Both the position numbers and the translations under genes were made by a program. 32,601 nt of DNA from Candidatus Uhrbacteria bacterium RIFCSPHIGHO2_02_FULL_57_19 (GTDB lineage: Bacteria > Patescibacteriota > Patescibacteriia > 2-12-FULL-57-11), in assembly GCA_001791115.1 (NCBI GenBank), contig MGDZ01000043.1, positions 2,572-35,172 on the forward strand, written 5' to 3'. The notes below the pieces were generated by a model. That model had not been told where the DNA came from and did not search any database. It saw nothing but the letters and a program-made list of their open reading frames with translations. Below are positions 1,900 to 17,998 of this stretch, piece after piece (position 1 is the stretch's first letter; every line of letters begins with the position of its first letter).

Positions 1900-1932
1900 A
1901 CCTGACAAATAATCCAATTTATCGTATTATTT

Positions 1933-1951
1933 AGTTCGAACCTCTCCTTCT
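1933..1951 (+). repeat. degenerate copy of the tRNA-Ser 3' end (agttcgaa-cctctcc-ttct)
   Basis: Matches agttcgaa[tctcgc]cctctcc[g]ttct of 107-132 if a 6-nt and a 1-nt deletion are allowed. Sits in the spacer after the first CDS. Confidence 0.3.
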
Positions 1952-1969
1952 CACCAGGAATTAATCGCG

Positions 1970-3152: not shown

Positions 3153-3154
3153 AA

Positions 3155-3526: not shown

Positions 3527-3534
3527 CAATCATG

Positions 3535-3556
3535 GGCCTATTCGTACGAATAGGCC
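3535..3556. terminator. 22-nt perfect palindrome ggcctattcgta/tacgaataggcc
   Basis: Lies 9 nt after the stop at 3526 and just before the next start. No T tract follows, so the terminator function is tentative. Confidence 0.4.
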
Positions 3557-3562
3557 TAATCA

Positions 3563-4372
3563 ATGTTGTTTATGAAGAAGCTGATCACTCATGTAAGACC
3601 TCATTTGGATGACATTTGCGGCATGTGGCTTTTGAAAAAATATGTCCCCGCGTTTCGTACTGCAGGGTTGTCATTTGTGTCGGCGACAATGAAAGATCCT
3701 GGAGACCCGAACCGCGTATTCGTCGGACTCGGACGGCGGCGGTTCGATGAACACAAAGGCGACATAGGCGAATCCGCCGCGTCACTAGTGTGGATATTTG
3801 TCCGTCCCAAGGTGAAGGATCGCGTCACTCGCGCCGCGCTTGACAGGTTGGTACTCTGGGTGCGAGATGAGGACAGGGGGATGCATGATCTTGAGCCGAA
3901 TCAGGAGCTCCTTCCGACGACCCAGATCAGGGCGTACTTTGATCGGCACGGCAGAAACTCTGCAACACTGGCTTCGTTCGGCTTTGAACTCCTTGAGGGA
4001 ATGTATTCGTCTTTTGAGAATTCCGTTCGGCTTGATCAGGCGTGGAAGAAACGGAAGGAGTTCAGAACCAGGTGGGGGAGGGGCGTGGCGTTGAAGACAG
4101 CGGCATCGGATGTCGATCAATACTCCTACAAGAAGGGTGCGGTTCTCCTCGTGCTTCACGACACCAGGGCGGGATTCCGTCACTACCGGGCCAGCGCGAA
4201 AAGCAGGGTGAATCTCACATCCACCTACCGCCTGCTTCGCGAGATCGATCCCCGTGCCGACTGGTATCTCCATCACTCAAAGAAACTCCTCCTCTCCGGC
4301 AGCGACGTAGCGCCTGACACAAGCATTTCAAAACTGCCGCTCCGTCGACTGATTGATTTGGTACGCGCATAG
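3563..4372 (+). CDS. hypothetical protein, weak resemblance to MYG1/UPF0160-type metal-dependent hydrolases
   Basis: 269-aa ORF. The N-terminal ITHVRPHLDDICGMWLL resembles the THxxxxHxDE motif of that family. I see no other support. Confidence 0.5.
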   Translation: MLFMKKLITHVRPHLDDICGMWLLKKYVPAFRTAGLSFVSATMKDPGDPNRVFVGLGRRRFDEHKGDIGESAASLVWIFVRPKVKDRVTRAALDRLVLWVRDEDRGMHDLEPNQELLPTTQIRAYFDRHGRNSATLASFGFELLEGMYSSFENSVRLDQAWKKRKEFRTRWGRGVALKTAASDVDQYSYKKGAVLLVLHDTRAGFRHYRASAKSRVNLTSTYRLLREIDPRADWYLHHSKKLLLSGSDVAPDTSISKLPLRRLIDLVRA

Positions 4373-7555: not shown

Positions 7556-7925
7556 TCCGGGGTAGCTCAGTGGTAGAGCAGTTGGCTGTGCCATTTTAGA
7601 AGCCACAAGCGCAGCCCTCGATGGAAACATCGGGGTGTCCTCGAGGTGAATTGCTGGAAGCCTACATCCCGAGTTTCAGAGGGACACGGTAATCAGCAGC
7701 CAAGCCTGCTCAGGTTTTTTTCGCGAAAAACTTGCGCAGGAAGGTTCAGAGACTAGGGCTTAGCCCGTACCCCCACACCTTTGGCATAAAAGGTGTGGGG
7801 GGAAGCGCCTCGCACCCAAGGTCTCCGGCAACGGAGAATCCGGGTGAAGATATAGTCCATGCCCCATGGAAACATGGGGGTACCGTGTAACCAATTGGTC
7901 GTGGGTTCGAATCCCACCCCCGGAG
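7556..7925 (+). tRNA. tRNA-Asn(GUU) interrupted by a group I intron in the anticodon loop
   Basis: Joining exon 1 (7556-7589, 34 nt) to exon 2 (7888-7925, 38 nt) gives a 72-nt cloverleaf: TCCGGGG TA GCTC AGTGGTA GAGC A GTTGG CTGTTAA CCAAT TGGTC GTGGG TTCGAAT CCCAC CCCCGGA G. U1-A72 and G73 fit bacterial tRNA-Asn. CCA is not encoded. Confidence 0.8.
7590..7887 (+). ncRNA. group I intron (IC3-like core), no internal ORF
   Basis: Exon 1 ends in U and pairs ggctgU (7584-7589) with Gcagcc (7611-7616), giving the U.G pair of P1. The intron ends in G (7887). Core strings cagaGACUAggg (7751-7755) and aagatatAGUC (7853-7857) can form P7. ccaagc is present. GAAA-capped hairpins lie at 7619-7632 and 7862-7879. 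These strings match my memory of the Azoarcus and Tetrahymena cores. Confidence 0.8.
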
Positions 7926-7926
7926 C

Positions 7927-7957
7927 AAAAAGATCCACCTACGCGTGGATCTTTTTG
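7927..7957 (+). terminator. intrinsic terminator after tRNA-Asn
   Basis: aaaaagatccac-ctacgc-gtggatcttttt. Confidence 0.7.
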
Positions 7958-8094
7958 CGTAGGGGAGCCCCGCAACTGCTTGCGGGGCGTGTGGGATGAG
8001 AAGGCCGGAGCCATGTCCGCCGAGCGATGCTGGCGAGGCGGACGGCGAGGCGCGGCCTGCGACCGAGGAGGCGGAAGCCGACGAGAGTTGTAGG

Positions 8095-8113
8095 CGAATC
8101 CCACCCCCGGAGC
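8095..8113 (+). repeat. direct repeat of tRNA-Asn 3' end (19/19 identical to 7908-7926)
   Basis: cgaatcccacccccggagc, read directly. Confidence 0.9.
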
Positions 8114-8114
8114 T

Positions 8115-8149
8115 GAAAAGCGGACTGCCTTCACGGTGGTCCGCTTTTC
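8115..8149 (+). terminator. hairpin following the repeat copy
   Basis: gaaaagcggac - 13-nt loop - gtccgcttttc. Same layout as the terminator behind the real tRNA. Confidence 0.55.
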
Positions 8150-8425
8150 AGTTTCAGGCAGAGTGGGATTCGAACGGGAAGGGGAGGGAGTCGAAACGGA
8201 GCGAGAACACAATTGTTTGTGCTCGAGCCGTTGAGACCAGCGAGGCGATGTTTTGATAGAACCGCCGAGCTGTCGGGAGTCTCCCGTGGCAGTTCGAGGG
8301 GCCGGAGAGCATACAACCCGCGTTGTGTGCGTGCCCCGAGAACGGGTTGAGCGATGTGCGATAGCACCGCGAGACCCTTCAACACTAAAACCGAGGGGTT
8401 TTAGAAGCGAGCGGAGCGAGCGCGT

Positions 8426-8447
8426 GAGATTCCCACGCCCGGAGCCA
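8426..8447 (+). repeat. diverged tRNA-Asn-like 3' end that carries an encoded CCA
   Basis: gagattcccacgcccggagCCA against tRNA cgaatcccacccccggagCAA. Lies about 110 nt upstream of the 8560 start. Confidence 0.6.
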
Positions 8448-8559
8448 TGAGTGGACGTGTGTGGCGCCCATATGCGTCTGACCAAAGACCCATCAGGAAA
8501 GTGTTGGTTTTTACAGGGGGCTGGTTATCAGTGTCATTTTCAGCTAAAATGTCTTCACT

Positions 8560-11500
8560 ATGATCAAGCTGCAGGAAAATCCAAATAGCATCGATTTCAT
8601 CCGCGATGTTGCGGTGTATTTTATGGATTTCCTTGAAACGGATTTCCATAAAAGAAAACTTCCAAAGCGATCCATCAAGACCCGTAATAGTGACAACCTT
8701 CTTGTGGGCCTAAGCCTACAGAAGTACCCGTCATTTAAACGTATCGTTTTTGGTTTGATTAAGGATGGTTTTAAGAAAGACATGAAGATCACTATCGAGA
8801 AAGGGGTCCACAAGACCAGCCTGCCCAAGAGCCTCTTGGAACTGATCAAATTACAGGTTGGAAAAATCAACTCCGCGGAGTTGAGCGCCACGCTGGAAAA
8901 AATATCCAAAGAAGTTGAAAAACTCGGAACGCTCCATGCTGAGGAATACGATGTTGCGCTGACCAAGTCGATCGAGGTGGCAACAACACTCGTTCGAGGT
9001 GGTCTGGTACAACCGTTCGTAAATCAGATTGAGAAGCCACTACTAAACTTGGAACTAGGAAATGAAGAAAACTTGTTTTCGGTCGAAGAAGAATTATCGG
9101 CGGTCTTGATTCGACAGCTAGAGAACAAGATTTCTGAAGTGCTAAACCTTTTCCTAGCAAAGGAAAAGGTTAATATCCTCAAAGAACTCAAGTCTGTATT
9201 TCCGTTATCGGACATTAAAAGTAGTATCCTCACTTTTTTCGAAAATCTTAAAGTTGCAGACCTTTTCTCTGAGATTTTTGAAATGGACAGGAATAAAGAC
9301 ATTTTAGACAAACAAGAGTTTTATCTGTATTTCGGAGAGATTTCTTACGCTGGAAACAAATATCCAATTTTCTACCTGCCGTTTTCGGTGATGCGGCACG
9401 AAGAGGTGTTTGATATTGATTTTGATTCCCAAATCTACGTAAACAAAAAAGCCATAGAGTTCATCGTTCAGGAATATAATGTACAAAAAGGGACAAAGGG
9501 CAACCTCAAAACTGTTTCGGAAAGAATCATTTACCTCGGAAGTGGAAAAGATGGGATTCAGGATTATTTCCATTCAGTCCTCAGCGAATTAACCAACTTC
9601 TTTGATTTGAGCGGCGAGGTCGATTTTTTGAGCAAGGATCACAAAATCGCGAAAGGTCAGCTGGTGCGCATAACAAACGCGACTTTTGTAAACTTATTCG
9701 ATAAATCCGACGAGGCCCTGGTGAATGACTATGAGGAGATTTTACAGCAGTTAGCCCAAGGCGAAGGACCGCTTGCTGGGATTTTCAGGATATTCATCGA
9801 TGATTTCATCGAGAAAAATCCGATACCATTCAATCCTGAGGTGGAGGACGAGTGGGACAACACACAAACGTCGGATCGCCTCGTGCCATCAAGCCCCATT
9901 CCCTTGAACAGCGAGCAGCTTCAGATTTTGTCCGCGATGAGAAAGGATGAATGTAAGTACATCATCGTTCAAGGTCCGCCAGGGACCGGAAAAAGTCACA
10001 CGATCACAGCCATCGTCTTTGACGCGATCTTGAAGAATCGTTCAGTTTTAGTGCTCTCGGACAAGAAGGAGGCTCTCGATGTCGTTGAGGAAAAAATTAC
10101 TCAGACGATGAACAAAGTACGTTTCGATCAGAATTTCCAAAATCCAATCCTCCGTCTCGGTAAAACAGGTAGTACATACGGCTCCATCCTCGCCAAGAAC
10201 ACAATTGAGAATATCAAGGTTCACTTTAGGGCTACTAAAAAGGACTACGACGCGATCGAACAGAACATTGAGAAGCTGAAAAACTCGCTTAAAGAAGACT
10301 TGGAAGCGGAAATCCTCTCTTACGACGACGTTGATATCAATGAAATTCACGAGCTGTTTGATTTGGAGCCGGGTATCGCGCGATTTGAGGGGGCCGTCGA
10401 TATCGTCGAACTTTTAGGGAGACCCGATGGAGCCACTGAGTTGGCAAGTATTAGAGAGCTAACCTCATCAATTACCAGCACGCTTTCTGCGCCGCGAATC
10501 CAGGAGGTTTTTGGCATCTTCGGACAGGAAACCTATGCCCCAACCGATATCACAAAGCTGCGGAAAGTTTTTGGATCAATATCCAGCGTCCCCCTAATCA
10601 TGGAGAAGGTTCGTAGTGTCTACCCATCGGCAGATCATCGGCTGAGATCGTTTAGGAAATTATCGTCTAGTGATATTACGAAGCTGGATACCTTTCTCGG
10701 GGACTATCAAGCATTAAAATCGTGGTTGTTTGGATATTTCTTTAGCAAGAAAGGCATTGAAGAATTGAACTTGCGATTTAATAAATCCTTTCCTCTCAAC
10801 GGATTTAGCGAGCCACACGAACAGCTTCACGATATCCAGGTTGTTCGCGACATACTCGCATATATCACGCAGCTTGGTGCCGATTTCGACCTCGCCACGA
10901 GAAATAAAATTGATTTTGTCACCATCTGCCATCGTTCGCTTGTCGATAATGAATTTGCAGAGGGTGTTCAGCAAGCGCATTCTATGGGCGAGAACGTTGA
11001 ATTTTTGATCGAAGCACTGAACCCGATTCCTCTCACCGCCGGGAAGGCCGGTATTTCATTACAACGACCTAGCTCCTTTACAAAAAACAAGATATTAGAG
11101 ATTAACGATGATGATTTTGATAAACTACTTCGCTATATCGGACTGAAGCAAAAGCTGGACACTGCTTTCGAAAATATTCCAGAACTGAATTATGCCGCCC
11201 GAAAAAAGAATTTGGAGGATCTTATTACGGCTCAGGCAACATACCTGCTCGATGGACGCCTCATCGATTTCTACGAGCACAGCCGCAATGACGCAGAAGC
11301 ACTCCGAAATATTATTAGAACAAAACAGCGCTTCCCGAAAAACGAGTTTCGAAAATTAAAAGAAGCGTTTCCTTGTATACTCGCGGGTATCAGGGACTAT
11401 GCAGAGTACATTCCATTGGAGCCGGAGGTCTTTGATCTCGTTATTATTGACGAGGCTTCACAGGTCAGCGTCGCACAAGCCTTTCCGGCACTGCTCCGCG

Positions 11501-13119
11501 CCAAGAAGGTCCTCATTTTGGGTGACAAAAAACAGTTTAGCAACATTAAGGCCGCACAGGCACGTTCTGACACTAACCGTGAATACCTGAACAGCCTCAG
11601 CGAATCGTTTAGACGCAACATATCTACGGATACGACGAAAATGGTCCGGCTCGGTAAGTTCAATATCAAAACTTCGATCTTGGAATTCTTCGAGTTCATC
11701 AGCAATTACAATATCCCGCTGCTGAAGCACTTCCGTGGCTACAAAGAAATAATCTCTTATTCGAATAAGTTTTTCTATGAGGGAAGTCTTCAGGTGATGA
11801 AGATTCGTGGGAAATCCGTCGATGAAGTAATTAAGTTCACAATCACCGAACCAGACGACAACAATGTTCCATATCAAAACACGAACATCGGTGAAGTTAA
11901 TTTCATCATCTCGGAGTTACGGCACCTCCGTGACGCAGACAGGGCTGATTCGGTTGGTATTATTACGCCTCACACCAACCAGCAAAAATTGCTGATGGAA
12001 AGGATCGCCAAGCTTCCAGAGAGGGATTACTATTTTGAAAAGTTGAAACTTAAAATAATGACGTTCGACACCTGCCAAGGTGAAGAGCGCGACATCATCT
12101 ACTATTCGATGGTTGCGTCTGCGCAATCGGACCGATTGTGGGGTGTATTCATAAGGAATCTGAATGACGTTGATGTCGAGGAGGATGGGCAGATCAAAGC
12201 TCAGCGTCTCAACGTCGGTTTCAGCCGTGCAAGGGAGACAATGCACTTTGTCCTGAGCAAACCAATTGATGATTTCACGGGCTCGATTGGTGATGCGTTG
12301 CGGCATTATCATTTCATTCTTGGCGAAGCGAAAAAAGAACATGGCATCGAGGAGGTTGATGCCAAGTCAAAGATGGAACCCGTGGTGATGAATTGGTTCT
12401 ATCAAACGAGGTTTTGGAACGAGCATAAAGATTCAGATTCAATCGTGTTCCAACCGCAGTTTGAACTTGGAAAGTATTTACGGCAATTAGATCACACATA
12501 CAGCCACCCTGCGTACAAGGTCGATTTTTTGTTGATCTATCGCGATGAATCCCATCGAGAACACAAGATTATTATTGAATACGACGGCTTCCGTGAACAC
12601 TTTAAAGACATTGATGAGATTAACGAGTTCAATTATCAGCACTATTACTCCGACGGGGACGTGTATCGACAGAAAGTGCTTGAAAGTTACGGGTACAAAT
12701 TCCTTAGAATAAACAAGTTCAACGCAGGCGAGCATCCCGTCGCAACATTGGATAAAAGGCTAGGCGACCTCGTGAAGGTTTATCCTAGTGGGAATCCGCT
12801 GCTCATGAATATTCATGAGACCGTCTCGAGTCTCCAAAATGGGGAAATGAAGGAATGTCCGAAGTGCAAAGAAGTCAGGCACTTGGCTGAGTTTAAGGAT
12901 TCAGCTCTGCTCACGGGTTATGGTAGATTTTGCAGCTTCTGTAAGGGCATCAAGTTCCAAGCTGCGCGCGACGGCCAGAAGACGCCACCGATATTGAGTG
13001 ATCAAGCTTGTCCAAGCTGTGGAGCAAAGATGGTGCTTCGGAGTGGAAGGCGTGAAAAATTCTATGGTTGCTCTAAGTTTCCGTATTGCAAGGGAACAAG
13101 AGATCACAAGGGTGTCTGA
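8560..13119 (+). CDS. 1519-aa fusion: DUF4011-like N-terminus, SF1 (Upf1/DNA2-like, AAA_11/AAA_12) helicase, DUF559/REase_MTES_1575-like PD-(D/E)xK nuclease, two C-terminal zinc ribbons
   Basis: EFYLYFGEISYAGNKYPIFYLPFSV (about aa 253). Walker A GPPGTGKS (nt 9973-9996). Walker B VIIDEASQV (DEAS nt 11449-11460). ILGDKKQF, LLKHFRGYKEIISYSNKFFYEGSL, VGIITPHTNQ, TFDTCQGEERDIIYYS, RLNVGFSRAR. Nuclease VDFLLIY...IIIEYDGFREH...YRQKVLESYGYKFLRINKF (nt about 12480-12730). CPKC...CSFC and the topoisomerase-type finger CPSCGAKMVLRSGRREKFYGCSKFPYCKG. Confidence 0.85.
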   Translation: MIKLQENPNSIDFIRDVAVYFMDFLETDFHKRKLPKRSIKTRNSDNLLVGLSLQKYPSFKRIVFGLIKDGFKKDMKITIEKGVHKTSLPKSLLELIKLQVGKINSAELSATLEKISKEVEKLGTLHAEEYDVALTKSIEVATTLVRGGLVQPFVNQIEKPLLNLELGNEENLFSVEEELSAVLIRQLENKISEVLNLFLAKEKVNILKELKSVFPLSDIKSSILTFFENLKVADLFSEIFEMDRNKDILDKQEFYLYFGEISYAGNKYPIFYLPFSVMRHEEVFDIDFDSQIYVNKKAIEFIVQEYNVQKGTKGNLKTVSERIIYLGSGKDGIQDYFHSVLSELTNFFDLSGEVDFLSKDHKIAKGQLVRITNATFVNLFDKSDEALVNDYEEILQQLAQGEGPLAGIFRIFIDDFIEKNPIPFNPEVEDEWDNTQTSDRLVPSSPIPLNSEQLQILSAMRKDECKYIIVQGPPGTGKSHTITAIVFDAILKNRSVLVLSDKKEALDVVEEKITQTMNKVRFDQNFQNPILRLGKTGSTYGSILAKNTIENIKVHFRATKKDYDAIEQNIEKLKNSLKEDLEAEILSYDDVDINEIHELFDLEPGIARFEGAVDIVELLGRPDGATELASIRELTSSITSTLSAPRIQEVFGIFGQETYAPTDITKLRKVFGSISSVPLIMEKVRSVYPSADHRLRSFRKLSSSDITKLDTFLGDYQALKSWLFGYFFSKKGIEELNLRFNKSFPLNGFSEPHEQLHDIQVVRDILAYITQLGADFDLATRNKIDFVTICHRSLVDNEFAEGVQQAHSMGENVEFLIEALNPIPLTAGKAGISLQRPSSFTKNKILEINDDDFDKLLRYIGLKQKLDTAFENIPELNYAARKKNLEDLITAQATYLLDGRLIDFYEHSRNDAEALRNIIRTKQRFPKNEFRKLKEAFPCILAGIRDYAEYIPLEPEVFDLVIIDEASQVSVAQAFPALLRAKKVLILGDKKQFSNIKAAQARSDTNREYLNSLSESFRRNISTDTTKMVRLGKFNIKTSILEFFEFISNYNIPLLKHFRGYKEIISYSNKFFYEGSLQVMKIRGKSVDEVIKFTITEPDDNNVPYQNTNIGEVNFIISELRHLRDADRADSVGIITPHTNQQKLLMERIAKLPERDYYFEKLKLKIMTFDTCQGEERDIIYYSMVASAQSDRLWGVFIRNLNDVDVEEDGQIKAQRLNVGFSRARETMHFVLSKPIDDFTGSIGDALRHYHFILGEAKKEHGIEEVDAKSKMEPVVMNWFYQTRFWNEHKDSDSIVFQPQFELGKYLRQLDHTYSHPAYKVDFLLIYRDESHREHKIIIEYDGFREHFKDIDEINEFNYQHYYSDGDVYRQKVLESYGYKFLRINKFNAGEHPVATLDKRLGDLVKVYPSGNPLLMNIHETVSSLQNGEMKECPKCKEVRHLAEFKDSALLTGYGRFCSFCKGIKFQAARDGQKTPPILSDQACPSCGAKMVLRSGRREKFYGCSKFPYCKGTRDHKGV

Positions 13120-13232
13120 CCATTGTCAGATTTGTCTCGATCTCGCCTTAAAGAACTTGAGACCCGCATTCGTCGGACTGTCCCGAAGGTGCTCCCGAAA
13201 AGCCCCCTAAGATATACACGAACTGGGGAACC

Positions 13233-13254
13233 AATCCCACCCCCGGAGCAAAAG
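13233..13254 (+). repeat. direct repeat of tRNA-Asn 3' end plus its trailing A-run
   Basis: aatcccacccccggagcaaaag. The first 21 nt are identical to 7910-7930. An imperfect hairpin and a T run follow (13250-13285). Confidence 0.9.
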
Positions 13255-13383
13255 GGGCGACTGCCTGTAGGCGGTCACCTCTTTTACTTTTGTGGTAGTC
13301 GGACTCTAGGGGCGCGAGAGGAACCAAGCAGCGCAGGTTCCGGTGCGTAGCGCCTAGGATCGAGTCGGAGCGAGAGAAGAGCC

Positions 13384-13396
13384 AACCCCAGAGCCA
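13384..13396 (+). repeat. weak tRNA-3'-end-like remnant with CCA (aaccccagagCCA)
   Basis: Part of a roughly 50-nt stretch (13366-13416) that aligns with 8412-8464: cggagcgag ... cc.gagccatga.tgg..gtgtgtg.gcc. Confidence 0.35.
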
Positions 13397-13488
13397 TGAA
13401 TGGGTGTGTGTGTGCCAACTCAGAAGTAAAGGGAGCGTACGGCGCGTGTTGACCGCCTTGTGGATTAAGAGTATTCTTTTCGCCGTAT

Positions 13489-14400
13489 ATGAAGCGTCTT
13501 TCGCCGCGATCAATTGATTTCCTGGCTGTGACCATTACGGGAGGAGCATGGCCGCCGGACGAAGCCACCCCATGGCCATACCGTCCGGGCTGGAAGATCG
13601 AAAAGTTTTTCCGCCAATGCAACTACGATTATTCGCTTAACGGTTCTTCGCGCGTACCGTGGACGGAGAGCGTGCTTCAGGACATCAATACGAAGGAGGG
13701 TGTCGATGGGGTGAAAAAGATCGTCGAGTATCTTCTCGACCCGCGGGACTGGGTGGGGAACGAGGAAAAACATGCCCTCCTTATTTCCGAGCTCAACGAT
13801 TATTTATTTCACGACGGGTACGAAGTTGTATACGAGGCTTCGCTTCGAAGGTACGTGATGAGAGAATTGGGTGGTGAGCCCGTGATGCTTCGCGAGGCGC
13901 ACAAGAGCTACTTTTTCAAACCAGCCGCGCTCGAAAAGGAGTTCGAACGTATCCTCGGTTCAATCGAGACGGACCCGCCCGACGCCGTCACATCGGCTTG
14001 CTCCCTCGTTGAGAGCGTTTGCAAGCATATTCTTGACAGGCTTGGTTTGCCACACCCGTCGCAGAAAACGATTTCACATCTCGTAAAATCCGTGATGGAA
14101 CACCTGCGCATCTTGCCGGAGGGTCAGACCGACGAAGGATTCCGTCGACTTGTCGGCGGACTTCGGACCGTTGTTCACGAGATCGGCAATATGCGAAATG
14201 AGTTTGGCGATGCCCATGGACACACCGACGGCCCACAACATCTCACTCGAACGCATGCCAAGCTTGCCGTCGGGTCGGCGGCGACGATTGCGACCTTTCT
14301 CGTAGAGACGTTCGAGACGCAAATGCCGAGAGAGGAGGCAAGGGGGCCGGGGCCGGATACCATCGTCCAAGGTATCAGGGCCAAGGATATTACTTTTTGA
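13489..14400 (+). CDS. AbiJ-like abortive-infection protein with C-terminal Abi_C/HEPN domain
   Basis: C-terminal IGNMRNEFGDAHGH (R at nt 14194, H at 14215) fits the RN..G.aHG motif of Abi_C and the Rx4-6H signature of HEPN. The N-terminal YRPGWKIEKFFRQCNYDY...SSRVPWTESVLQDIN...IVEYLLDPRDW resembles AbiJ N-terminal domains. Confidence 0.7.
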   Translation: MKRLSPRSIDFLAVTITGGAWPPDEATPWPYRPGWKIEKFFRQCNYDYSLNGSSRVPWTESVLQDINTKEGVDGVKKIVEYLLDPRDWVGNEEKHALLISELNDYLFHDGYEVVYEASLRRYVMRELGGEPVMLREAHKSYFFKPAALEKEFERILGSIETDPPDAVTSACSLVESVCKHILDRLGLPHPSQKTISHLVKSVMEHLRILPEGQTDEGFRRLVGGLRTVVHEIGNMRNEFGDAHGHTDGPQHLTRTHAKLAVGSAATIATFLVETFETQMPREEARGPGPDTIVQGIRAKDITF

Positions 14401-14446
14401 TCGCCTGTGTCTCAAACCCCCTTGAGCCTCGGATAAACGCAACTAG

Positions 14447-14455
14447 CCCCGGAGC
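14447..14455 (+). repeat. short remnant of the tRNA-Asn 3' end (ccccggagc) directly before a terminator
   Basis: Only 9 nt are identical. The context mirrors the real tRNA end: the hairpin that follows has a tacgcg centre like the one at 7927-7957. Confidence 0.4.
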
Positions 14456-14458
14456 CAA

Positions 14459-14491
14459 GAATAGCCGACGTACGCGTCGGCTATTCTTTTT
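14459..14491 (+). terminator. intrinsic terminator
   Basis: gaatagccgacg-tacg-cgtcggctattc followed by ttttt. Confidence 0.8.
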
Positions 14492-14588
14492 GTCTCGGAG
14501 GGATTTGAACGGACGCCCGAGGAGTGCGGTGATGCGCACTCCGAAGCACTTCGGCCGACCGGAAGGGAGCGAATTTCACTCACGCCTC

Positions 14589-14617
14589 TTGAGGCCACTG
14601 GAATTCCAGCGTATACT
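14589..14617 (+). promoter_or_regulatory. candidate sigma-70 promoter of the ABC-F gene
   Basis: TTGAGG (14589-14594), 17-nt spacer, TATACT (14612-14617). The ATG at 14627 is only 9 nt past the -10 box, which implies a leaderless or near-leaderless mRNA. Confidence 0.4.
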
Positions 14618-14626
14618 CGCCGGGCT

Positions 14627-16096
14627 ATGGGGAACGACAATGTCGTCCTGCGTTTCAGCGACGTCACCTTCCTCTACGGCGAACACCGGCCCATCCTTGA
14701 TGAGGCCTCCTTTTCGGTGCGAAACGGATCGAAGATCGCGCTGATGGGACAGAACGGCGCGGGCAAGACGACGCTGTTCAAGCTCATCACGGGCGAGCTG
14801 CAACCCCGCCATCGGCGGGGCATCTTTACGACGCCGAAGGAGACGACGATTGGGGTGGCGAAGCAGGTGGTCGCCCCGGAGCACAAGGATCTCACGGTCC
14901 GTGAGTTTTTTGCGACCACGTTTGCGCAGGTTCCGTACAACCTGGACAAGCGCATCGCCACGGTGCAGGACGCGGTGAACCTCAAGACGGACCTGAAAAA
15001 GAAGGTACAGGCGTACTCGGGCGGCGAGCTCGCGCGCCTCCTCCTCGCGTACGCGCTCATCCAGGATCCGGACCTCCTGCTCCTCGATGAACCCACAAAC
15101 AACCTGGACCAGGAGGGGATCGACCACCTCACGGGGTTTTTGATGATGTACGAGAAGACGGTGCTCGTCATCTCGCACGACGCCGAGTTCCTGAACGCCT
15201 TTACGGACGGCGTGCTCTACCTCGACGTCCACACGCAAAAGGTCGAACAGTACCAAGGCAACTATTGGAACGTGGTGGAGGAGATCGCCGAGCGAACTTC
15301 GCGCGAACGCATGCAGAACGCGCGCGCCGAAATGGAGATCCGCAAGAAGAAGGAGCAGGCCGAGGTCTTCGCGCACAAGGGAGGCAAACTGCGGTCGGTG
15401 GCGAAGCGCATGCGCGAGGCTGCCGAAGAGGCAGAAGAAAGCATCGTGGAGGTGCGCCGCGAGGACAGGACCATCCGGGAGTTCACTATCCCCATGCAGG
15501 AATTTCCGTATGACTTCAACGGCAAGATCCTCGACATCACGCAGGTTGGGATCATGAAGGATGGGAAGCACGTCACGAAGGAACTGAACCTCACGCTCCG
15601 CAAGGGGACGCATGCGCTGCTCGCCGGCCCGAACGGAATCGGCAAGTCAACGCTTCTTCAGCGCATCACAAACGACACGGCAGAGGGCATCACGATCGGC
15701 AAAGACGTGCGCGTCGGCTACTACAGCCAGGACTTCGCCACCCTCGACTACGGTCAAACGGCGTACGCCTGTCTCGAGGAAGTCATGGAGAAGAAGGACG
15801 AGCATATTCTGCGCGCGACTGCCGCGGGTTTCCTCTTGGACGGCAAGGCGCTTGGCAACCGGATTTCGCATCTTTCGGAAGGGCAAAAGGGACTGCTCGT
15901 CTTCGCCCACCTCGTGCTTATGAAGCCCGGACTCCTGCTCCTCGACGAGCCGACCAATCACATCAACTTCCGCCACCTGTCGACCATCGCCAAGGCCATC
16001 GACGAATTCGGGGGCGCGGTGCTGATCGTCAGCCACATCCCGGACTTCGTCGCCCAGATCCGGATCGACGCGACGATCGACCTCGGAAAACTTTGA
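14627..16096 (+). CDS. ABC-F family ATPase (two ABC domains, no TM domain)
   Basis: GQNGAGKTT / YSGGELARLLLAYAL / LLLLDEPTNNLD, then GPNGIGKST / LSEGQKGLLVFAHL / LLLLDEPTNHIN, with a charged K/E/R linker between the two domains. Confidence 0.9.
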   Translation: MGNDNVVLRFSDVTFLYGEHRPILDEASFSVRNGSKIALMGQNGAGKTTLFKLITGELQPRHRRGIFTTPKETTIGVAKQVVAPEHKDLTVREFFATTFAQVPYNLDKRIATVQDAVNLKTDLKKKVQAYSGGELARLLLAYALIQDPDLLLLDEPTNNLDQEGIDHLTGFLMMYEKTVLVISHDAEFLNAFTDGVLYLDVHTQKVEQYQGNYWNVVEEIAERTSRERMQNARAEMEIRKKKEQAEVFAHKGGKLRSVAKRMREAAEEAEESIVEVRREDRTIREFTIPMQEFPYDFNGKILDITQVGIMKDGKHVTKELNLTLRKGTHALLAGPNGIGKSTLLQRITNDTAEGITIGKDVRVGYYSQDFATLDYGQTAYACLEEVMEKKDEHILRATAAGFLLDGKALGNRISHLSEGQKGLLVFAHLVLMKPGLLLLDEPTNHINFRHLSTIAKAIDEFGGAVLIVSHIPDFVAQIRIDATIDLGKL

Positions 16097-16112
16097 ACCT
16101 GCTGATTCCGCG

Positions 16113-16128
16113 CCCCGAGTACTCGGGG
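16113..16128. repeat. 16-nt palindrome ccccgagtactcgggg (second palindrome family)
   Basis: Read directly. An identical copy lies at 31497-31512 and a degenerate version forms the csp terminator stem (16521-16542). Confidence 0.85.
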
Positions 16129-16278
16129 CTGCGCGGAGGTTCAGTCGCGCTTCTGCGTGCAATCCCGCCCCTGCTCGACGTTTCCATTCGAAGAGTGTAT
16201 CCTATCCGGGAAATCGGTGTGAGGCGTGGATAAAGGTCGAGTGCATGCCAAAGCCGATACACCAGGATTATTCAACCA

Positions 16279-16491
16279 ATGACATACAATCGTATGAACG
16301 GAACAATCAAGAGCCTGACCGAAAAGGGGTTCGGGTTCATCAGTCAGGAAGGACAGGAGAAAGATGTCTTTTTCCACTCGTCCTCCCTCGTCGGCGTGAC
16401 CTTTCCCGAGCTCCACGTGGGGGACGCGGTCTCCTTCGAAGTGGAGTCGTCCGAAAAGGGTCCTCGCGCCGTCAACGTCAAGCGGGTCTGA
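16279..16491 (+). CDS. cold-shock domain protein (CspA family)
   Basis: KGFGFI (RNP1) and DVFFHSS (RNP2-like). 65-70 aa. The start is either ATG 16279 or ATG 16294 (MNGTIK). A roughly 180-nt upstream untranslated region is typical of csp genes. Confidence 0.9.
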   Translation: MTYNRMNGTIKSLTEKGFGFISQEGQEKDVFFHSSSLVGVTFPELHVGDAVSFEVESSEKGPRAVNVKRV

Positions 16492-16516
16492 TTCGGACCC
16501 GGTAATCCAATGGAGC

Positions 16517-16548
16517 AAAAGCGTCCCGAGTACTCTGGACGCTTTTTT
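16517..16548 (+). terminator. intrinsic terminator of csp
   Basis: aaaa-gcgtcccgag-tac-tctggacgc-tttttt. Confidence 0.8.
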
Positions 16549-16707
16549 CGTCCGGCGTGAAGCAGACAGCGGTGACTGCGAAGGGATTGGTACTTGCGGT
16601 GCCGTTCGGATCAATACCACGATCGACCTCGGGAAACTTTGAGGCAATCTGGTATACTGGGTGTAGGGACCTCTGCAAAGGTCCATTTCTACTGCGCATC
16701 TCAAATT

Positions 16708-16727
16708 CCTGCCTGCCGGCAGGCAGG
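16708..16727. repeat. 20-nt palindrome cctgcctgccggcaggcagg (copy 2)
   Basis: Identical to 61-80. Intergenic, upstream of the glycosyltransferase gene. Confidence 0.9.
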
Positions 16728-16849
16728 TCGGCTGCAAAATCGCAACTGCTCCTCCGCTTATCTTCCAGATAAACATCGTCGCATTTGTGATTTTTCGCTT
16801 CGAAATTTGAAATGCTCGTGACGAAAGCGACTTTTGTAGAGGCCCCTGT

Positions 16850-17992
16850 ATGAAAATCGCAACGAACGTTCACCGTGACGCCTTTGGAGGAATAACGATC
16901 TCCAACCTGGCTCTTTTCAACTGGCTGGAGGAGAAACATGACGTGATTGTCGGCATCGAGGTGCTGATTTCCCGGCATATTCTCGGCGCGGTAATTTTTC
17001 GCCATTACGATCCGTCCTTTTTCCATCATCACATGATCAATGCCATCGACATCGTCCCCCAGAAGCCCTGGGAACGGGCCTGGGGGATGGCCAGTGCCCG
17101 CAATCGCTGGCGCGTCCTTATCGAGACCACGAAAAGGATCCTGCTCCAGGAAGCGCCGGACGTCGTGCTCTTGAATGGAACGTACTACGCGCCGTGGATT
17201 CTGGCCGTGGCGGCGCATGAGCTTGGCATCCCGACGGTCCTGCGTTATGCCGGCGTGTTGAAGCGCGAGGTCACTGGCATGGGCTACTTCGCCCGGCATC
17301 AGTTGCTCAACTACGAGCGTTGGCAGGCGTCAACCGCGGACGCCATCATTTTCCCGTCATCGCTTTGCCGAAAGGTAGTGGAGGAGGAGATTCTGGGCGC
17401 GCCGGCCAAGCACGGCGTTGTCATCCCGAACCCCGTGGATGCCGGAACACCCATACTTCGCCGCCGTGACGGGCGGTATGTGATCGCCGCCGTGGGCCGC
17501 TGGTCGCGGGTCAAGAATTTTCAGGCGTTCATCGCGCTGCACGAGGAGCTTCTCGCCGATCGCTGGCTTCACCGCGCTGTCGTGGTGACCTCCTATCACG
17601 ACAAGAAATTTCCGATTCCGGAAACCATCGTGCGGCGCGATCCGATGAGCCACGACGACCTGCAGAAGTTTTTCCGTACGATCAACCTGCTGGTCGTGCC
17701 GTCTCATTTCGAGACGTTCTGCAACGTCGCCGCCGAGGCGGTGATCCTGGGGACGCCGGTCCTGATTTCTGAAAACGTCGGGTTCTCGGAAATTCTTCGG
17801 AAGGCCGGTCTTGGACGGATGGTCATTGCCAATTTCGATGATCCGGTGAAGGTCGCGGGCGCGGTGAAGCGGCTTGCCCTAACGCACATCCTCAAAAAGG
17901 AACATGCCGCCCTCGCCGCCCTGCTTGATTCCCATCGGATTCATGAGCGCATGATCAAGGTGCTCAACGGCGTACTCCGCGTGAAGCAGTGA
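16850..17992 (+). CDS. GT-B fold glycosyltransferase, family 4-like
   Basis: C-terminal VVPSHFETFCNVAAEAVILGTPVLISENVG contains the E-x7-E motif of GT4 enzymes. gtagagg lies upstream of the ATG. Confidence 0.8.
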   Translation: MKIATNVHRDAFGGITISNLALFNWLEEKHDVIVGIEVLISRHILGAVIFRHYDPSFFHHHMINAIDIVPQKPWERAWGMASARNRWRVLIETTKRILLQEAPDVVLLNGTYYAPWILAVAAHELGIPTVLRYAGVLKREVTGMGYFARHQLLNYERWQASTADAIIFPSSLCRKVVEEEILGAPAKHGVVIPNPVDAGTPILRRRDGRYVIAAVGRWSRVKNFQAFIALHEELLADRWLHRAVVVTSYHDKKFPIPETIVRRDPMSHDDLQKFFRTINLLVVPSHFETFCNVAAEAVILGTPVLISENVGFSEILRKAGLGRMVIANFDDPVKVAGAVKRLALTHILKKEHAALAALLDSHRIHERMIKVLNGVLRVKQ

Positions 17993-17998
17993 GGTGTC

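What the first reader, a model, noticed from the sequence alone, without database searches (positions are those of the whole stretch)
8560..13119. 1519-aa DUF4011-like / SF1 helicase / PD-(D/E)xK nuclease / double zinc-ribbon fusion as candidate single-protein defence gene
One ORF combines four parts. (i) An N-terminal roughly 450 aa with a DUF4011-like G-x-hydrophobic...P-x-F/L-x-P motif. (ii) A complete Upf1/DNA2-type SF1 helicase motif set, with about 480 K/E/L-rich residues inserted between Walker A and the DEAS Walker B. (iii) A DUF559/Vsr-like endonuclease core (D in VDFLL, E-x-D in IIIEYDG, then RQ..L...GY.FLRI). (iv) Two C4 zinc ribbons, the last of the topoisomerase type. Hand counts of sample 60-nt lines give about 40-43% GC here, against about 52-62% in dnaG/rpoD and 60-70% in the ABC-F and GT genes. 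The gene sits alone between att-like repeats next to an Abi gene. Pairing a Upf1-like helicase with a nuclease is the logic of the known Mokosh and Nhi defence systems, but with different nuclease folds. I do not know a named defence system with this exact architecture.
Basis: partly seen in the sequence, partly recalled or inferred. Interest (0 to 1): 0.85.

Follow-up and report, generated by a model that had tools for sequence, protein, structure and literature searches.

The report
Hhe-like helicase-nuclease defence gene cassette
A foreign 4.6-kb gene inserted next to a tRNA gene of a candidate-phyla-radiation bacterium encodes one giant protein that joins a Upf1-type helicase to a Vsr-type DNA nuclease and zinc ribbons; it belongs to a large, unnamed, horizontally spreading family built like the known anti-phage protein Hhe, so it is most likely a single-protein anti-phage/anti-plasmid weapon, though this is untested.

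Summary
The ORF is real: 8560-13119, 1519 aa. Confirmed parts are a complete Upf1-like SF1 helicase with 485 aa between Walker A and DEASQ, a topoisomerase-type C4 zinc ribbon, low GC (44% against 55-60% in the flanks), flanking att-like repeats and an AbiJ-like neighbour. The Vsr/MTES_1575 nuclease is supported by alignment to genuine Hhe and by invariant D/ExD/H/R residues, but it is below Pfam's threshold. The "DUF4011-like" N-terminal domain shows only a motif-level resemblance. The insert is not K/E/L-rich.

The protein belongs to a large unnamed family. Its N-terminal domain matches 444 clusters (50% identity level), always at the N-terminus. Family members are about 60% identical across CPR bacteria, other bacterial phyla and archaea. 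No PADLOC, NCBIfam or Pfam model covers the family beyond the helicase and zinc-ribbon domains.

In 12 of 22 loci a large serine recombinase lies within 6 kb. Neighbours include an Hma system, a type I R-M system, a ThsB-like TIR protein, a reverse transcriptase and Cas4-like nucleases.

My verdict is an untested, Hhe-like single-protein defence candidate: a new variant of a known kind. Interest 0.55.

The parts
8560..13119 (+). The whole 1519-aa ORF, encoding the helicase-nuclease-zinc-ribbon fusion protein.
   Evidence: More than 120 full-length homologs share 58-65% identity.
8560..9894 (+). N-terminal domain, aa 1-445. It is a helical bundle followed by a beta-sheet subdomain. It has no Pfam model and no structural match. 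Its motif FYLYFGEISYAGNKYPIFYLPF (aa 254-275) resembles the DUF4011 core.
   Evidence: AlphaFold2 model with pLDDT 79.1. Foldseek against PDB and BFVD finds nothing at E<=0.001. The domain matches 444 clusters (50% level) at E<=0.001, always at the N-terminus.
9895..10329 (+). Helicase domain 1A, N-terminal part, aa 446-590. Walker A GPPGTGKS lies at aa 472-479 (nt 9973-9996).
   Evidence: Pfam AAA_11 covers aa 449-583. K478 is invariant.
10330..11379 (+). Variable insert of about 350 aa inside domain 1A, aa 591-940. It sits where Upf1 carries its 1B/1C accessory domains.
   Evidence: It is the least conserved stretch, with column identity 0.44-0.56. It has no PADLOC hit and its composition is not unusual. 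It was not modelled.
11380..12264 (+). Helicase domain 1A C-terminal part plus domain 2A, aa 941-1235. It carries DEASQ at aa 964 (nt 11449-11463), GDKKQ at 988, QGEERD at 1173 and RLNVGFSR at 1216.
   Evidence: Pfam AAA_12 covers aa 1053-1231. The PADLOC and NCBIfam helicase-only hits fall at aa 934-1238.
12427..12759 (+). Vsr-like (MTES_1575/DUF559-type) PD-(D/E)xK nuclease core, aa 1290-1400. Key residues are D1322 (in VDFLL), E1340-x-D1342 (in IIEYDG), H1347 and R1370.
12856..12942 (+). First C4 zinc ribbon, CPKC ... CSFC, aa 1433-1461.
   Evidence: Cysteine pattern. The cysteines are invariant in the 41-sequence alignment of close relatives. No Pfam model matches above threshold.
13003..13110 (+). 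Second C4 zinc ribbon, of the topoisomerase I type, aa 1482-1517.
   Evidence: Pfam Zn_ribbon_Top1 scores 44.5 and 48.2 bits against a cut-off of 32. It is present in 16 of 32 diverse family members.
7556..7925 (+). tRNA-Asn(GUU) gene. Exons are 7556-7589 and 7888-7925. A group I intron (7590-7887) splits the anticodon loop.
   Evidence: Rfam RF00028 scores 70.4 bits. Intron-less relatives join 7589 directly to 7888. ARAGORN misses the gene.
7910..7926 (+). att-like core, copy 1. This is the true 3' end of the tRNA-Asn gene.
8097..8113 (+). att-like core, copy 2. It is an exact copy and is followed by a terminator-like hairpin.
8429..8445 (+). att-like core, copy 3. It has 2 mismatches and ends 115 nt before the ATG of the helicase gene.
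13233..13249 (+). att-like core, copy 4. It is an exact copy, starts 114 nt after the stop codon, and is followed by a hairpin.
13489..14400 (+). Neighbouring AbiJ-like gene (Pfam Abi_C). It is a second cargo gene of the same islet.
   Evidence: Pfam Abi_C at 3.3e-18. PADLOC AbiJ at 1.4e-21.

Best explanation
The gene is the cargo of a small, horizontally acquired islet inserted at the 3' end of tRNA-Asn in a Patescibacteria (CPR) genome. It encodes a stand-alone nucleic-acid surveillance enzyme built like the anti-phage protein Hhe.

Shown here:
- an intact Upf1-like SF1 ATPase/helicase core;
- a C-terminal Vsr-like PD-(D/E)xK nuclease with all candidate catalytic residues invariant across the family;
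- two C4 zinc ribbons, the last of the topoisomerase I type;
- a conserved 445-aa N-terminal domain of unknown fold;
- no conserved partner gene and no methyltransferase partner.

Inferred mechanism:
- The motor loads on single-stranded DNA (or RNA, or a DNA replication/recombination intermediate) of an invading phage or plasmid. The zinc ribbons help it bind.
- It translocates 5'->3' using ATP.
- The N-terminal domain and the variable insert keep the nuclease off until a foreign structure or a phage-encoded activity is sensed.
- The Vsr-like domain then nicks or cleaves DNA. This either destroys the invader or aborts the infection.
- Because there is no modification partner, self/non-self discrimination must come from sensing rather than from methylation. 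This parallels Hhe, whose apparent triggers map to T7 DNA-metabolism genes.

The gene spreads between phyla and between domains as cargo of small integrative elements that carry a large serine recombinase, and as gene-only cassettes at tRNA genes.
For: Anatomy:
- Domains and motifs.
- The nuclease aligns with that of a genuine Hhe.
- In Hhe, mutation E1731A in the Vsr domain abolishes defence, and Hhe restricts lambda, T3, T7 and PhiV-1 (bioRxiv 10.1101/2022.06.16.496414).
- Hhe is classed as an SF1 Upf1-type helicase (PMC10925250).
- Hhe triggers lie among T7 class II genes and Bas63 g40 (bioRxiv 10.1101/2024.10.10.617714).

Accessory, foreign nature:
- GC is 44% against 55-60% in the flanks.
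- Gene GC is below flank GC in most loci, for example 0.28 against 0.43 in Methanoperedens.
- The family is about 55-60% identical across CPR lineages, Pedobacter, Elusimicrobia, Gammaproteobacteria, an actinobacterium, Methanoperedens and Aenigmarchaeota.
- A 33%-identical relative sits on a Priestia plasmid.
- The closest relative's contig (ABC-F 82.6% nt identity) has neither the helicase nor the AbiJ-like gene.
- tRNA-derived direct repeats bracket the gene here. They also bracket it independently at tRNA-Ala in L017: 27 of 29 nt match, spaced 4673 nt apart around a 4560-nt gene.

Defence-type neighbours:
- an AbiJ-like gene in the window; a ThsB-like TIR protein (L022); a PDC-M30A-like protein (L023); Cas4-like nucleases (L015, L024);
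- an Hma trio (DUF3883 helicase, DUF1156, DUF499) directly upstream in L152; a type I R-M system (HsdM/S/R) in L153; a reverse transcriptase in L151.

Not a phage gene: only 3-4 family members appear among 2.9 million viral contigs, and there are no family members among deposited phage genomes.
Against: - There is no experimental evidence for any member of this family.
- No curated defence model recognises anything beyond the helicase core. PADLOC PDC-S37 scores 141.8 bits, MkoC 125.7 and Hhe 64.5. NCBIfam ProA scores 141 bits against a cut-off of 1500, and Hhe 100 against 2000. The N-terminal domain, the insert and the C-terminus alone give no PADLOC hit at E<=1.
- The neighbourhood sample is small: 22 loci, of which 14 were annotated. 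It was not compared with a background rate.
- Several loci (L013, L017) sit among housekeeping genes with no defence neighbour.
- A large serine recombinase lies within 6 kb in 12 of 22 loci. This fits a function for the mobile element as well as it fits defence cargo.
- The nuclease assignment rests on sub-threshold profile scores and weak fold matches.
- Substrate (DNA or RNA), polarity and trigger are all inferred.
Confidence: 0.6

Rival explanations
1. The protein works for the mobile element rather than for the host. It would be the working enzyme of a family of minimal integrative elements made of a large serine recombinase plus this helicase-nuclease. Possible roles are replicating or processing the excised element, or excluding competing elements. 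Any benefit to the host would be incidental.
For: - A large serine recombinase lies within 6 kb in 12 of 22 loci. It is directly adjacent in L005 and L151 and about 0.6 kb away in L007 and L008.
- In L008 the arrangement is tRNA-Ser, then the helicase gene, then the recombinase, with little else.
- About 60% protein identity across phyla and domains points to sustained mobility.
Against: - The gene also occurs with no recombinase within the stored flanks: in the window, L001, L003, L006, L013, L017, L021, L024, L152 and L153.
- It sits in defence-type contexts next to Hma and type I R-M systems.
- The other cargo of the recombinase elements varies and looks defence-like: a TIR protein, Cas4-like nucleases, Fic, and a PDC-M30A-like protein next to a radical SAM protein.
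- A Upf1-like SF1 helicase fused to a Vsr nuclease is not a known replication module of any element (my own knowledge).
- Carrying defence cargo on small integrative elements is commonplace (my own knowledge).
Confidence: 0.2
2. The protein is an RNA-targeting surveillance enzyme. Upf1-like motors are often RNA helicases, as proposed for Mokosh and CoCoNuT. On this reading the motor tracks phage transcripts or R-loops, and the nuclease then acts on the RNA/DNA hybrid or on nearby DNA.
For: - The best matches among solved structures are the RNA helicases UPF1, IGHMBP2 and Sen1.
- The helicase core scores as high against Mokosh MkoA/MkoC as against the Hhe-like models.
- Mokosh and CoCoNuT type III-B (which has a Vsr fused to a Upf1-like CnuH helicase) are both predicted to sense RNA.
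Against: - Vsr/MTES_1575 domains are described as DNases (PMC3710099).
- Topoisomerase I-type zinc ribbons are annotated as DNA-binding (Pfam name; JGI labels them ssDNA-binding).
- Upf1-family enzymes also act on ssDNA.
- This is a variant of the best explanation rather than a true alternative to it.
Confidence: 0.1
3. The gene is a housekeeping DNA repair or recombination helicase-nuclease, with a Dna2- or AddAB-like role, serving reduced CPR and DPANN genomes.
For: - The helicase-plus-nuclease architecture resembles Dna2.
- The family is common in CPR metagenome-assembled genomes.
- In L013 and L017 it lies among housekeeping genes.
Against: - There is no synteny between loci.
- The gene is absent from the nearest relative's locus.
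- Its GC differs from the host's.
- It is bracketed by att-like repeats.
- Its distribution across domains is inconsistent with vertical descent.
- It occurs next to recombinases and defence systems.
Confidence: 0.04
4. The gene is a self-mobilising single-gene cassette. Its own nuclease and helicase would cut tRNA 3' ends and insert the gene, producing the flanking duplications.
For: - Two independent gene-only units are bounded by direct repeats of different tRNA 3' ends: the window at tRNA-Asn and L017 at tRNA-Ala. L025 shows a marginal third case with a similar geometry.
- There is no recombinase inside these units or elsewhere in the window.
Against: - The cassette ends share no conserved terminal sequence across loci.
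- The window carries four tandem att-like copies and a second cassette (the AbiJ-like gene). This is the usual signature of repeated integrase-mediated accretion at a tRNA, followed by decay.
- Most loci show no flanking repeats.
- Vsr-like nucleases have no known transposase activity (my own knowledge).
Confidence: 0.05

Closest known systems
Hhe, a single-gene anti-phage system; models are NCBIfam NF042953 and PADLOC PDLC02194, and the PADLOC candidate PDC-S37 is a close relative. cites its discovery to that paper's reference 25, which I take to be Gao et al. 2020.
   Same: - It is one giant protein with no partner.
- An N-terminal domain of about 440 aa precedes a Walker A at about residue 450-470.
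- It has a Upf1-like SF1 helicase with a very long insertion before the DEAxQ Walker B.
- It has a C-terminal Vsr/MTES_1575 PD-(D/E)xK nuclease, and this aligns with ours.
- Its DUF4011 core motif resembles our aa 253-281.
   Different: - There is no full-length homology. Our protein scores 64.5 bits against PADLOC Hhe and 100 against NCBIfam Hhe. The genuine Hhe used as control scores 1471 and 1203 bits against PADLOC Hhe and PDC-S37.
- Our N-terminal domain gives no DUF4011 Pfam hit.
- The insert is much shorter: about 485 aa against about 930 aa between Walker A and Walker B.
- Ours adds two C-terminal zinc ribbons.
- The host range centres on CPR and DPANN lineages rather than on Proteobacteria.
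Giant SF1-helicase + Vsr-REase (MTES_1575) fusion proteins described by Anantharaman et al. 2013 (PMC3710099)
   Same: - An SF1 helicase is fused to the same Vsr-family REase domain.
- No methyltransferase is associated.
- The authors predicted that these proteins restrict invading DNA independently of modification.
   Different: Those proteins carry HEPN, transglutaminase and C-terminal wHTH (DUF3320) domains. Ours has an orphan N-terminal domain instead, and zinc ribbons where theirs have the wHTH DNA-binding domains.
Mokosh type II (MkoC) and type I (MkoA/B), Millman et al. 2022
   Same: - The helicase is Upf1-like, and our core scores 124-126 bits against the MkoA/MkoC models.
- A helicase is paired with a nuclease, and in type II both sit in one protein.
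- Walker and nuclease mutants abolish defence.
   Different: - The Mokosh nuclease is of the PLD family, not PD-(D/E)xK.
- No PLD domain was detected in our protein.
- The flanking domains differ.
CoCoNuT type III-B CnuH (Bell et al. 2024, eLife RP94800)
   Same: It is a Upf1-like SF1 helicase with a helical insertion, fused directly to a Vsr-like PD-(D/E)xK nuclease.
   Different: - CoCoNuT systems are defined by an McrB-like GTPase (CnuB) and McrC (CnuC) encoded alongside the helicase.
- No such genes flank any of the annotated loci here.
NCBIfam 'anti-phage protein ProA' (NF058533)
   Same: It gave the best NCBIfam score, 141 bits, over the C-terminal half of the helicase.
   Different: - The score is far below the cut-off of 1500, and only aa 934-1229 match.
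- I found no paper describing ProA, so its architecture could not be compared.

Membership tests
Hhe (NCBIfam NF042953 / PADLOC PDLC02194) | A full-length match to the curated Hhe model, above its cut-off. | tested here: not met
   NCBIfam gives 100.5 bits against a cut-off of 2000, covering aa 933-1233 only. PADLOC gives 64.5 bits. A genuine Hhe run as positive control scores 1471 bits over positions 206-1898. The best of 32 diverse relatives reaches only 4.9e-25.
Hhe | An N-terminal DUF4011 domain (PF13195). | tested here: inconclusive
   There is no Pfam hit at E<=1, and none at E<=0.01 in 32 relatives. Whole-domain hhalign probability is below 7%. A local match of 29 columns does align our aa 253-281 to the DUF4011 core at an equivalent position: score 26.2, P 0.0016, against a maximum of 21.4 in 60 column shuffles.
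Hhe | A Upf1-like SF1 helicase with a long insertion between Walker A and Walker B. | tested here: met
   Hhe itself is classed as SF1_Upf1.
Hhe | A C-terminal Vsr/MTES_1575 nuclease with a catalytic glutamate. | tested here: met
   hhalign gives 99.2% probability over our aa 938-1404 against Hhe 1372-1795, which runs through the end of Hhe's MTES_1575 domain. E1340 in IIEYDG aligns with the E of GIECDG. D1322, E1340, D1342 and H1347 are invariant. The caveat is that the nuclease region alone is sub-threshold: Pfam 19.4 bits against a cut-off of 38.2, and hhalign E of 3e-4.
Hhe | Demonstrated anti-phage activity. | not testable with these tools
   This needs expression of the gene with phage challenge.
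PADLOC candidate PDC-S37 | A match over most of the 1550-position model. | tested here: not met
   The score is 141.8 bits, and the best stretch covers only model positions 928-1195. Genuine Hhe scores 1203 bits against this model, which shows that PDC-S37 is an Hhe relative.
Mokosh type II (MkoC) | A PLD-family nuclease fused to the Upf1-like helicase. | tested here: not met
   The Pfam scan finds no PLD domain. The MkoC hit covers only helicase residues 956-1227.
CoCoNuT type III-B | A conserved association with McrB-like (CnuB) and McrC-like (CnuC) genes. | tested here: not met
   No McrB or McrC families appear among the neighbours of 14 annotated loci.
Upf1-like SF1 helicases (Pfam AAA_11 + AAA_12) | Motifs I, II, III, V and VI present, with both Pfam models above threshold. 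| tested here: met
   AAA_11 scores 66.6 bits and AAA_12 63.3 bits against a cut-off of 27. The motifs are listed and are invariant. PDB sequence matches are to UPF1 and IGHMBP2.
Zn_ribbon_Top1 (PF01396) | A C4 ribbon scoring above the Pfam gathering threshold. | tested here: met
   It scores 44.5 and 48.2 bits against a cut-off of 32, at aa 1482-1517.
PD-(D/E)xK / Vsr fold | An alpha/beta core with the acidic residues on strands beta2 and beta3, and structural similarity to solved nucleases. | tested here: inconclusive
   In the AlphaFold2 model (pLDDT 72.9), D1322 lies on strand E85-93 and E1340/D1342 at the end of strand E99-106. The top Foldseek hits are all PD-(D/E)xK nucleases, but with E of 0.013-0.3 and TM-scores of about 0.2. 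Vsr itself is not among the top 50. A sequence profile search of PDB finds nothing.

The most novel reading that the evidence does not exclude
The helicase-nuclease gene is an autonomous single-gene mobile cassette. The protein's own nuclease and helicase, perhaps with its zinc ribbons recognising tRNA-gene DNA, would insert the gene at tRNA 3' ends and so create the 17-29-nt flanking duplications seen here at tRNA-Asn and in L017 at tRNA-Ala. If so, it would be a new kind of mobile element that is also a defence gene, and that would explain about 60% protein identity across bacterial phyla and archaea without any recombinase in cis.
Probability: 0.06. Interest if true: 0.88.

Novelty: new variant of a known kind. 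Interest (0 to 1): 0.55.

Why it matters
- CPR bacteria and DPANN archaea have tiny genomes and, to my knowledge, are reported to carry few recognised defence systems. Yet this family devotes a 4.5-kb gene to what looks like a stand-alone helicase-nuclease immune protein, and it moves between domains of life.
- None of the PADLOC, NCBIfam or Pfam models tested recognises the family beyond generic helicase and zinc-ribbon domains. Defence censuses that rely on such models would therefore miss it.
- The mechanism of Hhe itself is unknown. A second, very divergent branch with the same layout would show which features are essential: the motor, the Vsr nuclease and possibly one N-terminal motif. 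It would also show which are interchangeable: the insert, and the zinc ribbons against wHTH domains.
- The gene-only cassettes at tRNA genes and the tight link to large serine recombinases give a concrete model for how single-gene defence systems travel.

Tried and rejected
- ARAGORN found no tRNA in the window. The tRNA appeared only after reading the sequence and running Rfam. A brute-force splice scan with ARAGORN was ambiguous. Comparison with intron-less relatives settled the exon junction.
- Foldseek of the N-terminal model against PDB and BFVD gave only helical-bundle and other low-probability matches.
- Foldseek of the C-terminal model gave the right fold class but weak scores.
- A profile of the nuclease region against PDB sequences gave only chance hits.
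- hhalign of the N-terminal domain against a single Hhe sequence found nothing. Only a 55-sequence DUF4011 profile revealed the motif match.
- I looked for an 'empty site'. One relative's contig breaks 50 nt before ABC-F. Another (L106) lacks the island but is rearranged, so it is not a clean attB. Genes downstream of tRNA-Asn in relative L094 are ordinary or unknown.
- I looked for conserved cassette ends across loci and found none.
- I looked for further displaced tRNA 3' ends in ten loci and found none with an 18-nt probe.
- The promoter/terminator scan was at background level.
- Literature searches for PDC-S37 and ProA found nothing usable.
- Rejected: membership of Mokosh (no PLD domain), CoCoNuT (no McrBC genes) and Nhi. 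For Nhi, only 9 of 32 relatives give weak hits, and the motor is Upf1-like, whereas classes Nhi as UvrD-type.
- Rejected: a phage origin, because the family is almost absent from viral collections.
- The 241-aa ORF at 7760-8485 (-) overlaps the tRNA and its intron and is treated as spurious.

Full report
**1. What is in the sequence**

The ORF 8560-13119 (+) is the longest in the window and encodes 1519 aa. Pfam places AAA_11 at aa 449-583 with a second stretch near the Walker B. It places AAA_12 at aa 1053-1231 and Zn_ribbon_Top1 at aa 1482-1517. All three score above their curated cut-offs.

The SF1 motifs are intact: GPPGTGKS at 472, DEASQ at 964, GDKKQ at 988, QGEERD at 1173 and RLNVGFSR at 1216. 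The nearest solved proteins by sequence are IGHMBP2, UPF1 and Sen1, so the motor is of the Upf1-like SF1 class.

Walker A and Walker B are 485 aa apart. About 350 aa of this (aa 591-940) is an insertion and is the least conserved part of the family. It is not enriched in K/E/L compared with the rest of the protein.

The ORF has 44.3% GC. The neighbouring genes have 55-60%, and so does the non-coding DNA immediately flanking the ORF.

**2. The nuclease and the zinc ribbons**

MTES_1575, the Vsr-family REase domain first defined in giant SF1-helicase fusions (PMC3710099), scores only 15.5-19.4 bits against a cut-off of 38.2. Four other observations support the assignment:
- The same model hits 16 of 32 diverse relatives.
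- BLASTP and hhalign align our aa 938-1404 without a break to residues 1372-1795 of a genuine, PGAP-annotated Hhe from a Vibrio tubiashii plasmid. That stretch runs through Hhe's MTES_1575 domain. The hhalign probability is 99.2%.
- D1322, E1340, D1342, H1347 and R1370 are invariant in 32 sequences that are only 32-57% identical to the window protein.
- In the AlphaFold2 model of aa 1236-1519 (pLDDT 72.9), these residues lie on consecutive strands of an alpha/beta core. The best Foldseek hits are all PD-(D/E)xK nucleases, though weak, with E of 0.013-0.3.

A profile search of PDB sequences found nothing.

The last zinc ribbon is solid. The first (CPKC...CSFC) is conserved among close relatives but has no model. 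Only half of the wider family carries the Top1-type ribbon, so the ribbons are an accessory module.

**3. The N-terminal domain**

Residues 1-445 form a confident model (pLDDT 79.1) of a helical bundle followed by a beta-sheet subdomain. Foldseek found no match at E<=0.001 in PDB or in BFVD.

The domain has no Pfam, PADLOC or NCBIfam hit. A phmmer scan of 1.84 billion representative proteins found 444 clusters at E<=0.001 and 153 at E<=1e-30. The domain is always at the N-terminus. The full-length matches are mostly about 1300-1715 aa long, and many shorter matches look like fragments.

Whole-domain comparisons with Hhe's N-terminus are negative. Our EFYLYFGEISYAGN..KYPIFYLPFSVMRHE (aa 253-281) matches the DUF4011 core 'iLfLalGFLEw...APLllvPVsi'. 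The two motifs lie at equivalent positions, with score 26.2 and P 0.0016. Sixty column shuffles gave a mean of 12.9, an SD of 2.4 and a maximum of 21.4.

I read this as a real motif-level resemblance, and possibly very distant homology. It is not family membership.

**4. The family**

More than 120 full-length homologs of about 1520 aa share 58-65% identity with the window protein. Named sources include:
- many CPR lineages: Doudna-, Kaiser-, Levyi-, Pace- and Peribacteria, and Minisyncoccota;
- other bacteria: Pedobacter, Syntrophaceae, Elusimicrobia, Oligoflexia, Prolixibacteraceae, an actinobacterium and a gammaproteobacterium;
- archaea: Methanoperedens and Aenigmarchaeota.

A 33%-identical relative lies on a mobilizable Priestia megaterium plasmid.

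The window's own host is a Patescibacteria (CPR) bacterium. Its RpoD is 71-81% identical to proteins named Uhrbacteria, Woesebacteria, Parcubacteria and 'Patescibacteria group'.

In most loci the gene's GC is below that of its flanks.

Viral collections almost lack the family. Three or four members occur among 2.9 million IMG/VR contigs, and there are no family members among 50,697 deposited phage genomes.

**5. Is it a known defence family?**

It is not.
- PADLOC's best hits are PDC-S37 (141.8 bits), MkoC (125.7), MkoA (124.1) and Hhe (64.5). NCBIfam's best are ProA (141 bits against a cut-off of 1500) and Hhe (100 against 2000). All cover only the C-terminal half of the helicase.
- As a positive control, the genuine Hhe scores 1471 bits on the Hhe model and 1203 bits on PDC-S37.
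- Across 32 diverse relatives the best E-values stay at 4e-49 and 5e-25.
- The N-terminal domain, the insert and the C-terminus alone hit nothing.

Architecturally, Hhe is the closest named system. It is a single gene with an N-terminal domain of about 440 aa, a Upf1-like helicase with a giant insert and a Vsr nuclease. It is active against lambda, T3, T7 and PhiV-1 and is inactivated by E1731A. Mokosh has a PLD nuclease instead. CoCoNuT III-B requires McrBC partners. Both fail their defining features here.

**6. Genomic setting in the window**

Immediately after dnaG-rpoD lies a tRNA-Asn(GUU) gene (7556-7925) split by a 298-nt group I intron (7590-7887). Rfam scores the intron at 70.4 bits. 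Several relatives carry the same tRNA without the intron, which fixes the exon junction.

The tRNA's 3' end, AATCCCACCCCCGGAGC, recurs at 8097, 8429 (2 mismatches) and 13233, all on the + strand, against 0.12 copies expected. Copies 3 and 4 bracket the ORF tightly, 115 nt before the ATG and 114 nt after the stop. The exact copies at 8097 and 13233 are each followed by a hairpin.

The next unit holds an AbiJ-like gene. After it come a possible degenerate copy (CCCCGGAGC near 14447) and a strong hairpin, and then the host ABC-F gene.

The closest relative available (L106, ABC-F 82.6% nt identity) has tRNA-Asn next to ABC-F with no helicase or AbiJ-like gene on its 12-kb contig. Homology resumes at window position 14579. 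That locus is rearranged, so it is not a clean empty site.

No recombinase is encoded in the islet, and none was found among the window ORFs I scanned.

**7. Genomic setting elsewhere**

Across 22 independent loci no partner gene is conserved. Recurrent features are:

- **A large serine recombinase within 6 kb, in 12 of 22 loci.** It is directly adjacent in L005 and L151, about 0.6 kb away in L007 and L008, and often abuts a tRNA gene. tRNA-Asn is involved in L005, L015 and L019, tRNA-His in L022 and tRNA-Ser in L008.
- **A Cas4-like DUF2779/PDDEXK_1 gene.** It follows the helicase gene directly or overlaps its end in about five loci. In L024 and L151 it lies further downstream.
- **Defence-type neighbours:**
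  - an Hma trio directly upstream (L152);
  - a type I R-M system (L153);
  - a reverse transcriptase (L151);
  - a ThsB-like TIR protein (L022);
  - a PDC-M30A-like protein next to a radical SAM protein (L023);
  - Fic and an ADP-ribosylglycohydrolase (L011).

In L017 the gene alone is bounded by a 29-nt direct repeat (27 of 29 matching) that includes the 3' end of tRNA-Ala. The repeat spacing is 4673 nt for a 4560-nt gene. This is an independent second case of a gene-only cassette at a tRNA. L013 and L017 otherwise sit among housekeeping genes.

**8. Interpretation**

The most economical reading is a stand-alone, Hhe-like helicase-nuclease that defends against phages or plasmids. It would be carried as cargo by small integrative elements and as decayed or trans-mobilised cassettes at tRNA genes.

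The mechanism is inferred. ATP-driven translocation on single-stranded nucleic acid would be coupled to a Vsr-type DNase. The zinc ribbons would act as DNA anchors, and the orphan N-terminal domain plus the variable insert as sensor or auto-inhibitor. With no methyltransferase, discrimination must rely on sensing infection-specific structures or activities. This fits what a knockout screen suggests for Hhe, where T7 class II DNA-metabolism genes and Bas63 g40 behave as triggers and g40 is toxic only when Hhe is present.

The main rival is that the protein serves the recombinase elements themselves. I cannot exclude this computationally. The gene's occurrence without a recombinase, next to Hma and R-M systems, argues against it.

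**9. Verdict**

Its novelty claim is overstated, because Hhe and the 2013 SF1+Vsr fusions already embody this logic with the same nuclease fold.

The new points are:
- a large, cross-domain family centred on CPR and DPANN lineages that current defence models do not recognise;
- an N-terminal domain with no detectable relatives beyond one DUF4011-like motif;
- zinc ribbons in place of wHTH domains;
- a clear mobility context.

I rate it a new variant of a known kind, with interest 0.55.

Noticed in passing
window 7556-7925 (intron 7590-7887): A tRNA-Asn(GUU) gene is interrupted in its anticodon loop by a 298-nt group I intron (Rfam 70.4 bits). ARAGORN does not report the gene. Several relatives (L106, L041, L055, L135) carry the same tRNA without the intron, so the intron is sporadic. 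To my knowledge tRNA-Asn is not among the classic bacterial tRNA hosts of group I introns (Leu, fMet, Arg, Ile).
   Followed up: partly
window 7910-14490: There is a tandem array of tRNA-3'-end copies, each followed by a hairpin, that separates single-gene units: a 187-nt remnant, then the helicase gene, then the AbiJ-like gene. A second repeat, CCCGGAGCCATGAGTGGACGTGTGTG, occurs at 8433 and 13382. The pattern looks like repeated accretion at one att site. No integrase is present.
   Followed up: partly
window 7760-8485 (-): A 241-aa ORF is called as a gene in public assemblies (for example L026 2201-2926). It overlaps the tRNA-Asn 3' exon, part of the intron and the att repeats, and it has no Pfam hit. 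It is almost certainly a spurious gene call.
   Followed up: partly
window 271-4372 (+): Four consecutive ORFs of 542, 290, 200 and 269 aa lie upstream of dnaG. None has a Pfam hit, and their GC is lower (about 0.46-0.50) than the rest of the window. This may be another accessory segment.
   Followed up: no
L019 14584-16140; L011 15042-16154; L015 14508-15221; L024 14801-16255; L151 13026-14477: A Cas4-like DUF2779/PDDEXK_1 nuclease gene recurs downstream of the helicase gene. In L019 its ATG overlaps the helicase stop codon (TAATG). This may be an optional two-gene variant of the system.
   Followed up: partly
L005, L007, L008, L010, L011, L015, L019, L022, L023, L025, L151, L154: A large serine recombinase (Resolvase + Recombinase + Zn_ribbon_recom) lies within 6 kb of the helicase gene in 12 of 22 loci. 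In L015, L019 and L022 the 3' end of the recombinase gene overlaps a tRNA gene (Asn, Asn, His). These appear to be minimal integrative elements whose main cargo is the helicase gene.
   Followed up: partly
L152 28-9819; L153 9721-15741: Members of the family that share 46-50% identity with the window protein sit directly beside a complete Hma-type system (DUF3883 helicase, DUF1156 methyltransferase, DUF499 ATPase) and beside a type I R-M operon (HsdM/S/R).
   Followed up: partly
window 14579-18516 compared with L106: Relative to the closest related contig, the ABC-F gene is inverted with respect to tRNA-Asn and the downstream GT4/GreA genes. The DNA around this tRNA is therefore prone to rearrangement. 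Another relative's contig ends 50 nt before ABC-F (L032).
   Followed up: no
window 16850-17992 (+): The family 4 glycosyltransferase also matches Pfam 'GT4-conflict' (PF20706, 36.7 bits against a cut-off of 26). It is syntenic in relatives (L032, L106), so it is probably a host gene rather than part of the islet.
   Followed up: no
L025 7966-7986 and 12623-12643: A marginal 21-nt direct repeat (19 of 21 matching, E 0.018) brackets the helicase gene. Its geometry matches L017: it ends 15 nt before the ATG and resumes 81 nt after the stop. It is not derived from a tRNA.
   Followed up: no
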